The notes under the pieces: model-generated
What the model was told of the DNA's origin: nothing
What the model saw: the letters and a program-made list of their open reading frames with translations, nothing else
The model's database searches: none
In this document: positions 7,033 through 10,077 of the stretch, one piece after another
How the letters are laid out: every line of letters begins with the position of its first letter
How positions within the stretch are numbered: position 1 is the stretch's first letter
DNA from: a virus
Taxonomy: Duplodnaviria > Heunggongvirae > Uroviricota > Caudoviricetes
Virus record (IMG/VR): IMGVR_UViG_2541047928_000009
Location: 1 to 37,215 of that record
DNA length: 37,215 nucleotides
Direction: 5' to 3' (one strand)
Program-made: the position numbers and the translations under genes

Positions 7033-7061
7033 ATGGCCATCTACATCACTGAGCTAATAAC

Positions 7062-7093
7062 AGGCCTGCTGGTAATCGCAGGCCTTTTTATTT
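7062..7093 (+). terminator. Rho-independent terminator after the replication genes (tR2-equivalent position)
   Basis: Hairpin AGGCCTGC-(8 nt)-GCAGGCCT followed by TTTTTATTT. Confidence 0.65.
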
Positions 7094-7121
7094 GGGGGAG
7101 AGTAATTGGAGGATTTAAGAA

Positions 7122-7337
7122 ATGAGTACGATAGCTGAGCTTGTCAGGGCTAATTTTCGTGAAGAGTTGGCGCGTTGGTATCGGTATCGTTCATCGTCCA
7201 GTTTGCCGCTTGATGAGTTGTATGAGCATTCACCTGCCGCACGACGCTATCCGCGTGACCGTGTTCTTCGGCGGTTGTTCAGACTCAACAATGAGTTTCA
7301 GCGCAACAGAATAATCCGGAGTCTGGATTTAAAGTGA
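7122..7337 (+). CDS. Hypothetical nin-region protein (71 aa)
   Basis: ORF with a GGAGG-like RBS; no family recognised. Confidence 0.45.
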   Translation: MSTIAELVRANFREELARWYRYRSSSSLPLDELYEHSPAARRYPRDRVLRRLFRLNNEFQRNRIIRSLDLK

Positions 7338-7347
7338 AGGAGTGAGC

Positions 7348-7530
7348 ATGAGCGAGCAAATATTCAGAGAGATTAAGCCACGGTTTTATCGCAAGGTAAG
7401 GGTAGTTTATCAGGACGAAAACAAGACCTGTGCATACGCCATTCATAATGGTCGGTGGTCAGTGTTCGACACCAAAAACTTCGAGAAGAACTTCGAGAGG
7501 ATTAAGGGTGATGAGGAAACTAACATTTGA
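7348..7530 (+). CDS. Hypothetical nin-region protein (60 aa)
   Basis: ATG at 7348 with an AAGGAG RBS; end overlaps the ninB start. Confidence 0.45.
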   Translation: MSEQIFREIKPRFYRKVRVVYQDENKTCAYAIHNGRWSVFDTKNFEKNFERIKGDEETNI

Positions 7531-7951
7531 ACTAAGAAGCCCCATCCATCAGCAGAACGCCATTCAAGCTATCCAGCAAATCCTTCCAGACCCAACCAAA
7601 CCAATCGTAGTAAGCATTCAGGAACGCAACCGCAGCTTAGACCAGAATCGAAAGCTTTGGGCTTGCCTTGGTGACGTCTCTCGTCAGGTTGAATGGCATG
7701 GGCGCTGGCTGGATGCAGAAAGCTGGAAGTGTGTGTTTACCGCAGCATTAAAGCAGCAGGACGTTGTTCCTAACCTTGCCGGGAATGGCTTTGTGGTAAT
7801 AGGCCAGTCAACCAGCAGGATGCGTGTAAGCGAATTTGCGGAGCTATTAGAGCTTATACAGGCATTCGGTACAGAGCGTGGCGTTAAGTGGTCAGACGAA
7901 GCGCGACTGGCTCTCGAATGGAAAGCGCGATGGGGAGACAGGGCGGCATGA
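7511..7951 (+). CDS. ninB: NinB (Orf) recombination mediator
   Basis: [68 protein letters not shown]... matches lambda NinB as I recall it. Confidence 0.85.
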
Positions 7952-8130
7952 GACGACAGCGACGAAGTTTCACCGACATAATCTGCGAAAACTGCAAATA
8001 CCTTCCAACGAAACGCTCCAGAAATAAACCCAAGCCAATCCCAAAAGAATCTGACGTAAAAACCTTCAATTACACGGCTCACCTGTGGGATATCCGGTGG
8101 CTAAGACATCGTGCGAGGAAAACAAGGTGA
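7948..8130 (+). CDS. NinD/NinE-family small zinc-ribbon-like protein (60 aa)
   Basis: [60 protein letters not shown] resembles a conserved lambdoid nin-region protein; start overlaps the ninB stop; I am unsure whether it is NinD or NinE. Confidence 0.65.
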
Positions 8131-8240
8131 TTGACGTGATGATTTATTCGGGGCTATATTCCTCACACGCCAGCAAAATCTGGCGTCGGGATTGGAACCC
8201 CGATAATCATCATGGCGCATACCGCGTTAGCGGTTTTTTT
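8131..8240 (+). ncRNA. Candidate small structured RNA or tRNA-sized cloverleaf-like element: sigma70-like promoter, nested hairpins, intrinsic terminator
   Basis: TTGACG-(17-18 bp)-TATATT at 8131-8160; hairpins CGCCAG/CTGGCG (8168-8185) and TCGGG/CCCGA (8186-8203); 8 bp long-range pairing TGATGATT (8137-8144) with AATCATCA (8205-8212); terminator ACCGC-GTTA-GCGGT-TTTTTTT at 8221-8240; the supplied ORF 8085..8324 runs through this terminator. Confidence 0.35.
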
Positions 8241-8405
8241 ATGCGTAAAGCACTGCTACACCCAAATTATGGTGGGGCGTGCGGGGGAGTCGTAAGACTC
8301 GCCGGATTCCATGGTGACCGGTAGTTCCAACCCTGTACGTCTCACCACCCAATGATTGGAACCAGACGGTGGTGAGTATCCTTAACCTTTAAGGGAACTA
8401 TCACC

Positions 8406-8597
8406 ATGACAAACTTACCCCATGACTATTACGTCAATCTCGTAAAGATCCTTCTCAAGAAAGCCTCATACGCCGATAAACTCCGCCTGGCTGAAATAAT
8501 CGAGCGCGAAGCTATGCGCATCGCCAGCAACGATAACGCTGTTTCTGACGCAAAAATCTCCCTCGTAACCAAAGTAGTTATGGGAGGTGCAAAATGA
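8406..8597 (+). CDS. Hypothetical nin-region protein (63 aa)
   Basis: ORF with ATG preceded by an AAGGGAA RBS-like sequence; stop overlaps the next gene start. Confidence 0.45.
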
Positions 8598-9280
8598 AAA
8601 CGCTTCCGACCGTTAACACCCTACAGCCTATCCTGCATAATCAGATTCCAGTAATCACAACTGAGCTACTCGCCCGCCTTTATGGAACAGAAGCAATCCG
8701 TATACAGCAAAATCACCATGAAAATAAAACTCGGTTCATTGAGGGGAAGCACTTCTTTAAAGCTGTTGGTGATGAACTCAAAAATTTGCGACTAGTTTTA
8801 AACGAGTCACAAAATGAGGTACAAATTTCCCCCAAAACTCGCTCTCTCATCCTCTGGACAGAACGCGGGGCTGCACGTCACGCTAAAATGCTTGAAACTA
8901 ACCAAGCGTGGGATGTGTTCGAACGGCTGGAAGACTGCTATTTCAGCCAGTGCGAGAAAAATACTGGCAAACAAGAGAAGAAGCCCAACGGGCTTTCCGC
9001 AAAAGAAACAGACAGCCTTGTATGGCTGTGGGATTATGCCAACCGCTCACAGGCATTGTTCCGTGAGTTGTATCCCGCATTAAAACTGATTCAGTCTGGC
9101 TATTCCGGCATATGCCACGACTACGGCTATGAGTTCTCGTATATCATCGGGAGGGCGAGGGGCGTTTTAATTAATCACACGCGGGATATAGATATTTATG
9201 AGCCTGACGGGCCGACGAACCTTCTGGCATGGGAAAGGCTTAAGAACAAAGAGTTGCCGCCTTCACTGCATCGCTACTGA
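8594..9280 (+). CDS. ORF6N/KilA-N-like domain protein (putative antirepressor-like regulator)
   Basis: N-terminal segment [46 protein letters not shown]...[30 protein letters not shown] resembles ORF6N-type domains; assignment from memory only. Confidence 0.5.
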
Positions 9281-9348
9281 CAATTGACAACTTAACAAAC
9301 CCAGCTTCGGCTGGGTTTTTTATTGCTGAATTTTCAATATGAGAGGAC

Positions 9349-10077
9349 ATGACAATGAATGAGCTGATAAATAGCAACGTCATCAAAATGACAAGCATTG
9401 AAATCGCTGAGTTGGTGGGAAGCCAACACGGTAATGTCAGAATATCAATAGAACGTCTGGCAAAGCGTGGGGTGATTCAACTTCCTCCAATGCAAAAAGT
9501 TGAAAATAAACAAACAATTAGCCCTAACAAATTCACAAGCGTGTATATATTCGAAGGCGAACAAGGTAAGCGAGACAGCATTATTGTCGTCGCTCAGTTG
9601 TCGCCGGAATTCACCGCTCGTCTTGTTGACCGTTGGCGAGAACTCGAAGGGGCAACCGCGAAAATACCACAAACCTTTTCTGAGGCATTGCGCCTTGCGG
9701 CCGACCTTGAAGACCAGAAGGCTGAACTGGAGAAACAGCTTGCTCTCGCAGCACCTAAAGTTGAGTTTGCCGATCGCGTTGGCGAGGCCAGCGGAATTTT
9801 GATTGGAAACTTTGCAAAGGTTGTTGGAATTGGTCCAAACAAACTGTTTGCGTGGATGCGCGATCACAAAATCCTTATTGCTTCAGGTTCCCGGCGCAAT
9901 GTGCCAATGCAGGAATATATGGATCGCGGCTATTTCACAGTGAAAGAAACAGCGGTCAACACAAATCACGGAATACAGATATCGTTCACCACAAAAATCA
10001 CCGGGCGTGGTCAACAGTGGCTGACCAGAAAGCTGCTCGATAACGGAATGCTGAAAGTAACAGGGGAGGCTGCTTAA
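9349..10077 (+). CDS. Phage antirepressor, Rha-like N-terminal domain plus KilAC/ANT-like C-terminal domain
   Basis: N-terminal SIEIAELVGSQHGNVRISIERLAKRGVI (Rha-like); C-terminal FADRVGEASGILIGNFAKVVGIGPNKLFAWMRDHKILIA (KilAC-like). Confidence 0.65.
   Translation: MTMNELINSNVIKMTSIEIAELVGSQHGNVRISIERLAKRGVIQLPPMQKVENKQTISPNKFTSVYIFEGEQGKRDSIIVVAQLSPEFTARLVDRWRELEGATAKIPQTFSEALRLAADLEDQKAELEKQLALAAPKVEFADRVGEASGILIGNFAKVVGIGPNKLFAWMRDHKILIASGSRRNVPMQEYMDRGYFTVKETAVNTNHGIQISFTTKITGRGQQWLTRKLLDNGMLKVTGEAA

What the first reader, a model, noticed from the sequence alone, without database searches (positions are those of the whole stretch)
8131..8405. Promoter-to-terminator bounded structured element in the nin region (candidate sRNA or degenerate tRNA-like cloverleaf)
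Seen in sequence: a near-consensus sigma70 promoter (TTGACG, 17-18 bp spacer, TATATT; 8131-8160) is followed by two adjacent hairpins (CGCCAG/CTGGCG and TCGGG/CCCGA), an 8 bp long-range pairing (8137-8144 with 8205-8212) that encloses about 76 nt, and a clean intrinsic terminator (ACCGC-GTTA-GCGGT + T7; 8221-8240). Further hairpins follow at 8334-8380 (CTCACCACC...GGTGGTGAG). The supplied 79-codon ORF (8085..8324) runs straight through the terminator, so I doubt it is coding. The element is tRNA-sized with three stem-loops, but the loops are non-canonical (no TTCRA T-loop, 6-nt central loop), so I do not call it a tRNA.
Basis: seen in the sequence. Interest (0 to 1): 0.55.

Follow-up and report, generated by a model that had tools for sequence, protein, structure and literature searches.

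The report
IsrK and C4 antirepressor RNA switch
The flagged stretch is a known prophage small RNA (IsrK) followed by a known antisense RNA (C4), which together control translation of a downstream anti-repressor gene; it is a correct catch but an ordinary member of a described system.

Summary
Rfam covariance models place a full-length IsrK sRNA at 8167-8240 (72.2 bits, cutoff 50) and a full-length C4 antisense RNA at 8265-8352 (84.3 bits, cutoff 45). The IsrK region also matches the "a1,b1 targets of C4" model (45.8 bits, cutoff 46.7).

The layout is that of phage P1 immI: promoter, a1/b1 decoy RNA with its own terminator, C4 (a'/b'), a2/b2 targets, a short leader ORF (63 aa, 8406-8597), then an overlapping anti-repressor gene (8594-9280).

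In about 100 distinct related loci:
- the IsrK loop, the C4 loop and the downstream target change together (99/104 exact three-way 7-mer matches, against 2/832 in controls);
- both RNA structures show abundant compensatory changes.

The 79-codon ORF 8085-8324 is not conserved and has no family match. The tRNA-like cloverleaf is not supported. The 8-bp "long-range pairing" has one arm in the promoter spacer, upstream of the transcription start, and is not conserved. The hairpin at 8341-8376 is conserved, but it is an alternative to the C4 closing stem and displays the a2 target.

Novelty: already known. Interest is low.

The parts
8131..8160 (+). sigma-70-type promoter of isrK (TTGACG, 18-nt spacer, TATATT); inferred start at A8167
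   Evidence: Consensus scan. The -35 and -10 elements are conserved at fixed distance in 101 homologues. The homologous Gifsy-1 promoter is required for isrK and downstream transcription (PMC4825925). The start site is inferred from the Rfam model start and spacing; it was not measured here.
8167..8240 (+). IsrK sRNA, equivalent to the P1-type a1/b1 element. Hairpin 1 is 8167-8186, hairpin 2 is 8186-8203, the single-stranded linker is 8204-8220, and the intrinsic terminator is 8221-8240.
   Evidence: Rfam isrK RF01394: 72.2 bits against cutoff 50, model positions 1-77/77. c4-a1b1 RF03163: 45.8 bits against 46.7 at 8154-8206. The MFE fold gives the same three hairpins. Hairpin 1 has 6/7 pairs with compensatory changes; 98.7% of cells are paired against 84% in shuffles.
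8192..8198 (+). a1 site TTGGAAC, in the loop of IsrK hairpin 2; complementary to a' of C4
   Evidence: Read from the sequence. Three-way covariation with a' and a2 in 99/104 unique loci, against 2/832 in controls. The homologous Gifsy-1 positions G28/G31 pair with C162/C159 of the C4 region, shown by compensatory mutants (mapped on L002).
8207..8215 (+). b1 site TCATCATGG in the IsrK linker; 9 bp (one G-U) with b' of C4
   Evidence: Duplex of -12.5 kcal/mol. The cognate loop-to-linker Watson-Crick run averages 6.9, against 4.0 for non-cognate pairs, across 99 loci.
8265..8352 (+). C4 antisense RNA. The closing stem is 8270-8286/8331-8347, the first hairpin is 8287-8300, and the b' hairpin is 8301-8322.
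   Evidence: Rfam C4 RF01695: 84.3 bits against cutoff 45, model positions 1-87/87. MFE -44.3 kcal/mol, z = -4.6. 15 of 22 pairs show compensatory changes; 99.1% of cells are paired against 83.7% in shuffles and 36-49% when slid.
8309..8317 (+). b' recognition loop of C4 (CCATGGTGA)
   Evidence: Complementary to b1 (8207-8215) and b2 (8401-8408). The loop is hypervariable, with about 60 different cores in 99 loci, and covaries with both partners.
8324..8330 (+). a' recognition site of C4 (GTTCCAA), single-stranded between the b' hairpin and the closing stem
   Evidence: Unpaired in the fold. It is the exact complement of a1 and a2.
8341..8376 (+). Alternative hairpin (CTCACCACC / GGTGGTGAG) that displays a2 (TTGGAAC, 8356-8362) in its loop. 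Its 5' arm is the 3' strand of the C4 closing stem, so the two structures exclude each other.
   Evidence: Stem of 7 bp or more in 96/99 homologues, with covarying variants such as TCGCCACC/GGTGGCGA and GCTACCAC/GTGGTAGC. P1 has the equivalent CCUGCCACC...GGGUAGCAGG.
8401..8408 (+). b2 target TCACCATG, which includes the ATG (8406-8408) of the 63-aa ORF. A Shine-Dalgarno-like AAGGGA lies at 8391-8396.
   Evidence: 8-bp Watson-Crick match to b', -12.8 kcal/mol. In most homologues b2 lies over the Shine-Dalgarno sequence, 8-13 nt before the ATG.
8406..8597 (+). 63-aa leader ORF in the position of P1 icd. Its stop overlaps the next start (ATGA at 8594-8597).
   Evidence: ORF list. Full-length match to phrog_7886, E = 7.8e-47. 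Annotated as a hypothetical protein in RefSeq. No similarity to P1 Icd.
8594..9280 (+). Anti-repressor gene (ORF6N + P22_AR_C domains), the regulated output
   Evidence: Pfam PF10543 (1.3e-19) and PF10548 (3.4e-24). phrog_377 'anti-repressor Ant', 1.6e-81.
9297..9318 (+). Terminator-like hairpin plus T-run that closes the cassette
   Evidence: Terminator scan: 9-bp stem, 5 G-C pairs.

Best explanation
The interval holds two known regulatory RNA genes of a phage P1 immI-type anti-repressor switch, inserted between ninE and a second anti-repressor gene of a lambdoid E. coli prophage.

Proposed mechanism:
1. A sigma-70 promoter (8131-8160) starts transcription near 8167.
2. Most transcripts stop at the intrinsic terminator (8221-8240). 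This gives the 74-nt IsrK sRNA, which displays two short sequences: a1 in the loop of hairpin 2 and b1 in the linker.
3. Transcripts that read through contain C4 (8265-8352), then a2 and b2, then the 63-aa ORF and the translationally coupled anti-repressor gene.
4. C4 carries a' and b', which are complementary to a2 and b2. Pairing covers the start codon of the 63-aa ORF, so the ORF is not translated. The anti-repressor, whose start overlaps the ORF's stop, is then not made either.
5. IsrK carries look-alike copies of the targets. It therefore competes for the C4 loops, in cis within the read-through RNA and in trans as the short RNA. This relieves the block and allows anti-repressor synthesis and prophage induction.

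Shown here: identity of both RNAs by covariance models, their structures by covariation, the three-way covariation of the a and b sites, and the gene content.

Inferred from experiments on homologues (P1 and Gifsy-1): the transcription start, termination and read-through, C4 processing, repression by C4, and activation by IsrK.
For: - Rfam matches: isrK 72.2 bits (cutoff 50) and C4 84.3 bits (cutoff 45), both full length. c4-a1b1 scores 45.8 bits at 8154-8206.
- Folds match the family structures.
- Covariation in 85-87 distinct homologues: C4 has 15/22 pairs with compensatory change and 99.1% of cells paired, with 0/500 shuffles reaching this. IsrK hairpin 1 has 6/7 such pairs.
- a1, a' and a2 are exact complements or copies in 99 of 104 unique loci, across 9 sequence classes. 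Foreign-class controls give 2/832.
- The b sites covary three ways, with about 60 different cores.
- Site-level duplex energies: b'-b1 -12.5, b'-b2 -12.8, a'-a1 -16.4, a'-a2 -8.8 kcal/mol.
- The MFE fold of the read-through RNA pairs the middle of IsrK with the C4 loops and buries the ORF start. This resembles the published inactive 'structure A'.
- Downstream genes: a conserved 63-aa ORF and an ORF6N/P22_AR_C anti-repressor with an ATGA overlap.
- The annotated P1 immI has the same order: promoter, a1, b1, c4, a2, b2, icd, then ant1 with a 4-nt overlap. Its a1/b1 region also hits the isrK model and carries a terminator-like hairpin.
- In Gifsy-1, IsrK supplied in trans raises anrP translation 139-fold. 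The compensatory pairs G28A/C162U and G31A/C159U fall exactly in a1 and a' by my mapping.
Against: - Nothing was measured for this locus. No transcript ends, no processing and no regulation were tested.
- The c4-a1b1 model score is 0.9 bit below its curated cutoff.
- The published Gifsy-1 model is framed differently, as alternative structures around an 'orf45' that overlaps C4. That ORF is closed after 8 codons here (sequence), so the published mechanism cannot be transferred literally.
- In Gifsy-1, an a1 mutation in cis raised basal expression (93 against 4 units). A pure 'IsrK is only a decoy' model does not predict this.
- Co-expression of the C4-containing fragment (STnc1160) made IsrK toxicity stronger, not weaker.
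- The homologue set was collected with a pattern that fixes the hairpin-1 loop and the start of hairpin 2. Conservation of those bases is therefore by construction.
Confidence: 0.82

Rival explanations
1. The short IsrK RNA is mainly a by-product of an attenuator. In this view the a1/b1 sequences act only in cis, within the read-through precursor. They would hold C4 in an inactive pairing, or guide its folding and processing. Regulation would then be set by the frequency of terminator read-through rather than by a trans-acting decoy.
For: - The read-through RNA folds with the middle of IsrK paired to the C4 loops.
- P1 annotation calls a1/b1 only 'putative' target sites.
- Cis mutations in a1 change basal expression in Gifsy-1.
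- The authors raise the possibility that the C4-like RNA modulates termination at the IsrK terminator, as P4 CI RNA does.
Against: - IsrK supplied in trans activates anrP translation 139-fold in Gifsy-1, and IsrK a1 mutants lose that activity.
- The terminator is conserved in the homologues examined. A stem of 5 bp or more was found in 72/87, with 10 different stem sequences. This points to selection for a discrete short RNA.
Confidence: 0.25
2. IsrK acts chiefly as an Hfq-dependent trans-acting sRNA on host (core genome) mRNAs. Under this view its link to the neighbouring C4 and anti-repressor genes is secondary.
For: Rfam labels the family 'Hfq binding RNA'. Other prophage sRNAs of E. coli act on host sRNAs and mRNAs (review PMC12197685).
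Against: - The only variable, exposed parts of IsrK (a1 and b1) covary with the adjacent C4 and with the adjacent mRNA leader in about 100 loci. Conserved host targets would not allow this.
- About 60 different b1 sequences exist.
Confidence: 0.1
3. The 79-codon ORF 8085-8324 is a real protein-coding gene, and the hairpins are incidental.
For: An uninterrupted GTG-initiated ORF exists.
Against: - No Pfam or PHROG family match.
- It is not annotated in the identical RefSeq genome.
- Its first 46 nt overlap ninE in another frame, and it spans an intrinsic terminator.
- IsrK length varies from 74 to 91 nt in homologues, with length mod 3 spread 45/29/27. The corresponding frame meets a stop at a median of 86 nt. 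In 26/103 loci no frame is open across the region.
- Substitutions are compensatory in RNA stems.
Confidence: 0.02
4. A degenerate tRNA or tRNA-like cloverleaf closed by the 8137-8144/8205-8212 helix.
For: The 8-bp complementarity is present. A run this long is uncommon, occurring in 8/987 non-cognate pairs.
Against: - ARAGORN finds no tRNA, and there is no Rfam tRNA match even at E up to 10.
- The 5' arm lies between the -35 and -10 hexamers, upstream of the transcript start.
- 97/101 homologues lack a comparable pairing.
Confidence: 0.01

Closest known systems
immI operon of phages P1 and P7 (c4 antisense RNA, a1/b1, a2/b2, icd, ant1/2). References from my own knowledge: Citron & Schuster 1990 Cell; Riedel et al. 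1993; Hartmann et al. 1995. They are cited in PMC8201110 and PMC11143913.
   Same: - Same order and spacing of parts: promoter, two hairpins carrying a1 and then b1, a terminator-like hairpin, C4 with a'/b', then a2 directly after C4.
- b2 lies over the translation start region of a short ORF, whose stop overlaps the start of an anti-repressor gene (searches compared).
- The C4 model scores are similar: 68.8 bits for P1 and 84.3 bits here.
   Different: - The leader ORF is not related to Icd.
- The anti-repressor here is an ORF6N/P22_AR_C protein.
- b2 covers the start codon rather than the Shine-Dalgarno sequence.
- The host element is an integrated lambdoid prophage (nin region), not a P1 plasmid prophage.
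- No C1 operator is known at this promoter.
- The a and b recognition sequences differ: TTGGAAC/CATGGTGA here, TTGACAG/GTTAGTG in P1.
isrK - STnc1160 ('orf45') - anrP locus of Salmonella prophage Gifsy-1 (Hershko-Shalev et al. 2016, PMC4825925)
   Same: - Same Rfam families in the same order and the same promoter architecture.
- IsrK hairpin 1 is identical, and the C4 closing stem is nearly identical.
- An anti-repressor gene lies downstream.
- The proven IsrK-to-target pairing corresponds to a1-a'.
   Different: - Recognition sequences differ at all three sites in step: TTGGCGT/ACGCCAA there, TTGGAAC/GTTCCAA here.
- 'orf45' is closed after 8 codons here.
- This locus has a separate 63-aa leader ORF after C4. 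In Gifsy-1, b2 lies on the anrP Shine-Dalgarno sequence.
- Gifsy-1 carries the cassette after the Q gene, whereas here it follows ninE.
ninE - (isrK/C4) - ant - roi region of Stx2 phage VT2-Sakai and related Stx phages
   Same: The same insertion point directly after ninE, followed by ant and a roi-like second anti-repressor. The DNA is 77-82% identical over 8085-8377.
   Different: Sakai annotates a 57-codon 'hypothetical protein' across the C4 region and has no separate leader ORF like the 63-aa one here. The RNAs are not annotated there.
P4 CI RNA with seqA and seqC (the comparison made by the IsrK authors)
   Same: A processed small RNA flanked upstream and downstream by complementary sequences within one transcript.
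   Different: According to that paper, P4 CI causes premature transcription termination of replication genes. No P4-type family matched here. I did not test this relation further.

Membership tests
isrK (Rfam RF01394) | Covariance-model score at or above the curated gathering score, over the full model | tested here: met
   72.2 bits against 50, model positions 1-77/77, at 8167-8240.
isrK (Rfam RF01394) | Two 5' hairpins, a single-stranded linker and a Rho-independent terminator | tested here: met
   The MFE and centroid folds give exactly this arrangement. Hairpin 1 covaries. The terminator scan is positive.
isrK (Rfam RF01394) | Own promoter; a short terminated form plus a read-through form that carries the downstream anti-repressor message | not testable with these tools
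   The promoter consensus is present and conserved. Transcripts were not measured. These features are shown only for Gifsy-1.
isrK (Rfam RF01394) | Hfq binding | not testable with these tools
   This is a family label only.
c4-a1b1 (Rfam RF03163) | Covariance-model score at or above the gathering score | tested here: inconclusive
   45.8 bits against 46.7 (E = 2.4e-10), model positions 1-53/53, at 8154-8206. Gifsy-1 scores 48.1 and P1 scores 51.0.
c4-a1b1 (Rfam RF03163) | Lies upstream of a C4 RNA and carries sequences complementary to that C4's a' and b' | tested here: met
   a1 at 8192-8198 is the exact complement of a' at 8324-8330. b1 at 8207-8215 forms 9 bp with b' at 8309-8317.
C4 antisense RNA (Rfam RF01695) | Covariance-model score at or above the gathering score, over the full model | tested here: met
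   84.3 bits against 45, model positions 1-87/87, at 8265-8352.
C4 antisense RNA (Rfam RF01695) | Long closing stem enclosing two hairpins, with a single-stranded a' and a loop b' | tested here: met
   Fold at z = -4.6. 15/22 pairs have compensatory changes, with 0/500 shuffles reaching the observed score.
C4 antisense RNA (Rfam RF01695) | a' and b' complementary to a2 and b2 in the downstream message, with b2 at the translation start region of the first ORF | tested here: met
   a2 is at 8356-8362. b2 at 8401-8408 includes the ATG at 8406. These sites covary across about 100 loci.
C4 antisense RNA (Rfam RF01695) | Controls an anti-repressor gene, reached through a translationally coupled upstream ORF | tested here: met
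   Gene content and the ATGA overlap at 8594-8597. Only the architecture was tested; the regulation itself was not.
C4 antisense RNA (Rfam RF01695) | Excised from the precursor by RNase P (shown for P1/P7) | not testable with these tools
   The literature is cited in PMC11143913. The conserved ...CACC tail after the closing stem is present, but cleavage was not tested.
tRNA / tRNA-like | Cloverleaf recognised by tRNA detectors | tested here: not met
   ARAGORN finds 0 genes in the window. There is no Rfam tRNA or tmRNA match in 8000-8700 at E up to 10.

The most novel reading that the evidence does not exclude
IsrK-type RNAs may be dedicated anti-antisense decoys, so that each cassette is a three-RNA switch addressed by a two-part code.
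- The a site exists in only about 9 classes, whereas the b site exists in 60 or more.
- A single E. coli genome carries up to 9 cassettes.
- Cassettes that share the a class could therefore partly cross-titrate one another's C4. This would link the induction of co-resident prophages.
- Natural chimeras with mismatched a1 and a' (L119, L025) would be constitutively altered.

A smaller version concerns the promoter-spacer copy complementary to b1 (8137-8144). It may act in transcripts that enter from the upstream early operon, masking b1 during lytic growth.
Probability: 0.3. Interest if true: 0.4.

Novelty: already known. Interest (0 to 1): 0.17.

Why it matters
The element is a textbook-type antisense switch for anti-repressor synthesis, and so for prophage induction. 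Its value here is practical rather than conceptual.
- It explains an unannotated 275-bp gap after ninE and removes a spurious 79-codon ORF.
- It shows that what the literature treats as two separate stories are the same system: Salmonella IsrK with 'orf45', and the P1 c4 a1/b1 sites.
- Sequences resembling the IsrK-C4 tandem occur in 2435 of 5426 complete E. coli genomes. They are usually unannotated or overlaid by protein calls, so annotation pipelines miss a common regulator of prophage induction.

Tried and rejected
- **tRNA or tmRNA reading:** ARAGORN finds none, and there is no Rfam tRNA match.
- **Protein-coding reading of 8085-8324:** no Pfam or PHROG match, and the frame is not conserved.
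- **Literal transfer of the Gifsy-1 'orf45' model:** the corresponding AUG (8269) opens only 8 codons here (sequence). I therefore used the P1-type description.
- **Homology of the 63-aa ORF to P1 Icd:** no alignment.
- **Conserved function for the 8-bp promoter-spacer/b1 complementarity:**
  - The mean cognate run is 4.8 against 4.5 for non-cognate pairs.
  - A run of 8 or more occurs in 4/101 cognate against 8/987 non-cognate comparisons.
  - The excess is weak, partly explained by conserved motifs, and left open.
- **Terminator covariation:** the MAFFT alignment of the IsrK terminator was too ragged for column-wise counts. A per-sequence fold was used instead.
- **Hartmann et al. 1995 (RNase P processing of C4):** the paper is not held in the library.
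- **Prevalence:** the first E. coli search could not be used, because the query included the 3' end of ninE. I repeated it with the RNA region only.
Full report
**1. What is in the sequence**

The interval lies between a NinE gene (7948-8130, Pfam NinE 3e-43) and a 63-aa ORF (8406-8597). The consensus scan finds TTGACG-18 nt-TATATT at 8131-8160 and a terminator ACCGC-GTTA-GCGGT plus T-run at 8221-8240.

The promoter match alone is not above chance: 3 sites were found and 3.3 expected in 2.5 kb. Folding 8167-8240 gives three hairpins:
- 8168-8173/8180-8185
- 8186-8190/8199-8203
- 8221-8225/8230-8234

The MFE and centroid structures are identical at -25 kcal/mol.

The 8-bp complementarity TGATGATT (8137-8144) / AATCATCA (8205-8212) is also present. 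Its 5' arm sits between the -35 and -10 hexamers.

**2. Identification**

Rfam covariance models give two matches above their curated cutoffs in the whole window:

| Family | Coordinates | Score | Cutoff | Model coverage |
|---|---|---|---|---|
| isrK (RF01394) | 8167-8240 | 72.2 bits | 50 | full length |
| C4 antisense RNA (RF01695) | 8265-8352 | 84.3 bits | 45 | full length |

A permissive scan adds c4-a1b1, 'a1, b1 targets of C4 antisense RNA' (RF03163), at 8154-8206. It scores 45.8 bits, 0.9 bit below its cutoff. ARAGORN finds no tRNA. C4 alone folds at -44.3 kcal/mol, z = -4.6.

**3. Anatomy, in P1 nomenclature**

| Site | Sequence | Coordinates | Location |
|---|---|---|---|
| a1 | TTGGAAC | 8192-8198 | loop of IsrK hairpin 2 |
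| b1 | TCATCATGG | 8207-8215 | IsrK linker |
| b' | CCATGGTGA | 8309-8317 | loop of the second C4 hairpin |
| a' | GTTCCAA | 8324-8330 | single-stranded in C4 |
| a2 | TTGGAAC | 8356-8362 | downstream of C4 |
| b2 | TCACCATG | 8401-8408 | contains the ATG (8406) of the 63-aa ORF |

Site-level duplex energies are b'-b1 -12.5, b'-b2 -12.8, a'-a1 -16.4 and a'-a2 -8.8 kcal/mol.

The 63-aa ORF is a conserved phage protein family (phrog_7886, 7.8e-47). Its stop overlaps the start (ATGA, 8594-8597) of a 228-aa anti-repressor, which matches:
- ORF6N (1.3e-19) and P22_AR_C (3.4e-24) in Pfam;
- phrog_377 'anti-repressor Ant'.

A terminator-like hairpin at 9297-9318 closes the unit. A second anti-repressor-like gene (Rha + KilAC) follows at 9349-10077.

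**4. Comparative evidence**

Together with the window and Gifsy-1 these gave 104 distinct sequences. The pattern fixes the hairpin-1 loop and the 5' arm of hairpin 2, so conservation of those bases is by construction. Everything else is free to vary.

- **a sites.** The 7-nt a1 sequence falls in 9 classes. Its exact complement lies in the C4 region in 101/104 loci. A second copy (a2) lies downstream in 99/104 loci. With a foreign class the figures are 8/832 and 2/832.
- **b sites.** The b' loop has about 60 different cores.
  - Its longest Watson-Crick run with its own IsrK linker averages 6.9, against 4.0 for non-cognate linkers.
  - With its own downstream leader the average is 7.8, against 5.1.
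- **IsrK structure.**
  - Hairpin 1 has 6/7 pairs with compensatory changes.
  - 98.7% of cells are paired, against 84% in shuffles and 23-49% when slid.
- **C4 structure.**
  - 15/22 pairs have compensatory changes.
  - 99.1% of cells are paired, against 83.7% in shuffles.
  - The covariation score is 0.519 against 0.224, with 0/500 shuffles reaching it.
- **Terminator.** It folds with a stem of 5 bp or more in 72/87 sequences, with 10 different stem sequences.
- **Promoter.** The -35 and -10 elements are conserved at fixed distance from the hairpin.

**5.

The hairpin CTCACCACC (8341-8349) / GGTGGTGAG (8368-8376) is conserved. Its stem is 7 bp or more in 96/99 loci, with covarying variants. 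It shows a2 in its loop. Its 5' arm is the 3' strand of the C4 closing stem, so it is an alternative conformer of the unprocessed precursor rather than an independent element.

The 8-bp promoter-spacer/b1 pairing is not conserved. A run of 8 or more occurs in 4/101 cognate against 8/987 non-cognate comparisons, and the means are 4.8 against 4.5. It would in any case be absent from an RNA starting at 8167.

**6. Coding test**

ORF 8085-8324 has no Pfam or PHROG match. It is not annotated in the identical RefSeq genome.

In homologues:
- IsrK length ranges from 74 to 91 nt, with length mod 3 spread 45/29/27.
- The equivalent frame meets a stop at a median of 86 nt.
- 26/103 loci have no open frame across the region.

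The ORF is spurious.

**7. Comparison with known systems**

*P1.* The annotated P1 immI region has these parts in the same order:
- promoter P1c4;
- hairpin 1;
- a1 (TTGACAG) in the loop of hairpin 2;
- b1 (GTTAGTG), followed by a terminator-like hairpin;
- c4;
- a2 three nucleotides after c4;
- b2 on the icd Shine-Dalgarno sequence;
- icd, then ant1 overlapping icd by 4 nt.

The P1 a1/b1 region even hits the isrK model at 35 bits.

*Gifsy-1.* This locus has isrK, c4-a1b1 and C4 in the same order, upstream of anrP. In the Gifsy-1 study:
- The isrK promoter drives the downstream operon.
- IsrK in trans raises anrP translation 139-fold.
- The compensatory pairs G28A/C162U and G31A/C159U define the IsrK-to-target helix.

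Counting from the IsrK start in the Gifsy-1 sequence, G28 and G31 lie in a1 (UUGGCGU), and C159 and C162 lie in a' (ACGCCAA). The experimentally proven pairing is therefore a1-a'.

The paper calls the C4 region 'orf45'/STnc1160 and likens IsrK to P4 seqA. The papers I could search do not equate IsrK with the P1 a1/b1 element. Here the orf45 AUG (8269) opens only 8 codons (sequence). The P1-type description therefore fits better than the orf45 one.

*Layout in other loci.* In 56 of 80 assessable loci the first ORF after a2 is longer than 100 aa. About 13 have a 62-81-aa leader ORF like this one.

**8. Mechanism**

Shown here:
- both RNAs are bona fide family members under structural selection;
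- the a and b sites of IsrK, C4 and the leader co-evolve;
- b2 covers the start codon of a leader ORF that is coupled to an anti-repressor gene.

Inferred from P1 (own knowledge: Citron & Schuster 1990; Biere et al. 1992; Hartmann et al. 1995, cited) and from Gifsy-1:
- C4 is cut from the read-through transcript.
- C4 pairs with a2/b2 and blocks leader-ORF translation, and with it anti-repressor synthesis.
- IsrK, which carries target look-alikes, sequesters the C4 loops and relieves the block, favouring prophage induction.

Points that do not fit a pure decoy model:
- A cis a1 mutation raises basal expression in Gifsy-1.
- Extra STnc1160 enhanced rather than reduced IsrK toxicity.

The relative weight of cis folding and trans titration therefore remains open.

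**9. Distribution and novelty**

The 516-nt stretch 8085-8600 is 100% identical in two E. coli chromosomes, W224N and DETEC-S589. No RNA is annotated in the NinE-orf63 gap of W224N.

Positions 8172-8600 are 98.4-98.8% identical in about 48-kb E. coli plasmids carrying parA, and in Yersinia phage vB_YpM_39. VT2-Sakai has the cassette at the same place after ninE.

Sequences resembling the IsrK-C4 tandem occur in 2435 of 5426 complete E. coli genomes, with up to 9 places per genome.

Both RNAs, their architecture and their role are described in curated families and in experimental papers. The finding is a correct detection of a known element. Its specific features are:
- a recognition pair not seen in the other 98 sampled loci;
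- a b2 site that covers the start codon;
- a non-Icd leader ORF.

These are ordinary variation within the family.

Noticed in passing
window 8154-8240; L123 4218-4312; L002 2511-2600: Rfam keeps two separate families for what appears to be one element. isrK (RF01394) has no clan, while c4-a1b1 (RF03163) is in clan CL00128. Both match the same bases here, in Gifsy-1 and in P1. The P1 a1/b1 region also carries a terminator-like hairpin.
   Followed up: partly
window 8269-8295: The AUG that starts 'orf45' in Gifsy-1 lies in the 5' strand of the C4 closing stem. Here it opens only 8 codons (MVGRAGES*). The published orf45 is therefore not a conserved coding feature of this family.
   Followed up: partly
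L119 6065-6142 (-) and downstream; L025 6969-7045 (+) and downstream: Two loci look like chimeras. In each, the IsrK a1 class (TTGGTCT or TTGGAGC) does not match the C4 a' and a2 of the same cassette (GTTCCAA/TTGGAAC). They are probable recombinants between cassettes, with unknown regulatory consequence.
   Followed up: no
L041 3959-4148 and 7221-7407: One viral contig carries two IsrK-C4 cassettes 3.3 kb apart. They share the same a class (TTGGCGT) but have different b sites.
   Followed up: no
window 8172-8600; L124 3001-3429: The cassette from inside IsrK hairpin 1 onward is 98.4-98.8% identical in about 48-kb parA-bearing E. coli plasmids (probable phage-plasmids) and in Yersinia phage vB_YpM_39. 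The upstream ninE side is not shared. The similarity breakpoint falls at the conserved GCAAAATC loop. In plasmid C311 p2 the anti-repressor gene is annotated as a truncated pseudogene.
   Followed up: partly
window 8137-8144 with 8205-8212: The promoter spacer contains an 8-nt complement of the b1 region. Runs of 8 or more occur in 4/101 homologues against 0.8% of non-cognate pairs. This is a weak excess that I cannot explain. It could matter only in transcripts entering from upstream.
   Followed up: partly
window 9349-10077: A second anti-repressor-like gene (Rha N-terminal plus KilAC domains, roi-like) follows the cassette terminator at 9297-9318. The arrangement resembles ant-roi in VT2-Sakai.
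   Followed up: no
E. coli RefSeq genomes (hits H58, H59, H61-H63, H66): In several genomes the IsrK-C4 homologue lies under CDS annotated as 'ash family protein' or 'Rha family regulator'. In others nothing is annotated. Some of these protein calls may extend spuriously over the RNA genes.
   Followed up: no
L001 2048-2659 versus window 7033-7530: The otherwise matching E. coli W224N prophage has an HNH endonuclease gene between the toprim/primase gene and ninB. The window has several small ORFs there instead, so the window does not come from that exact prophage.
   Followed up: no
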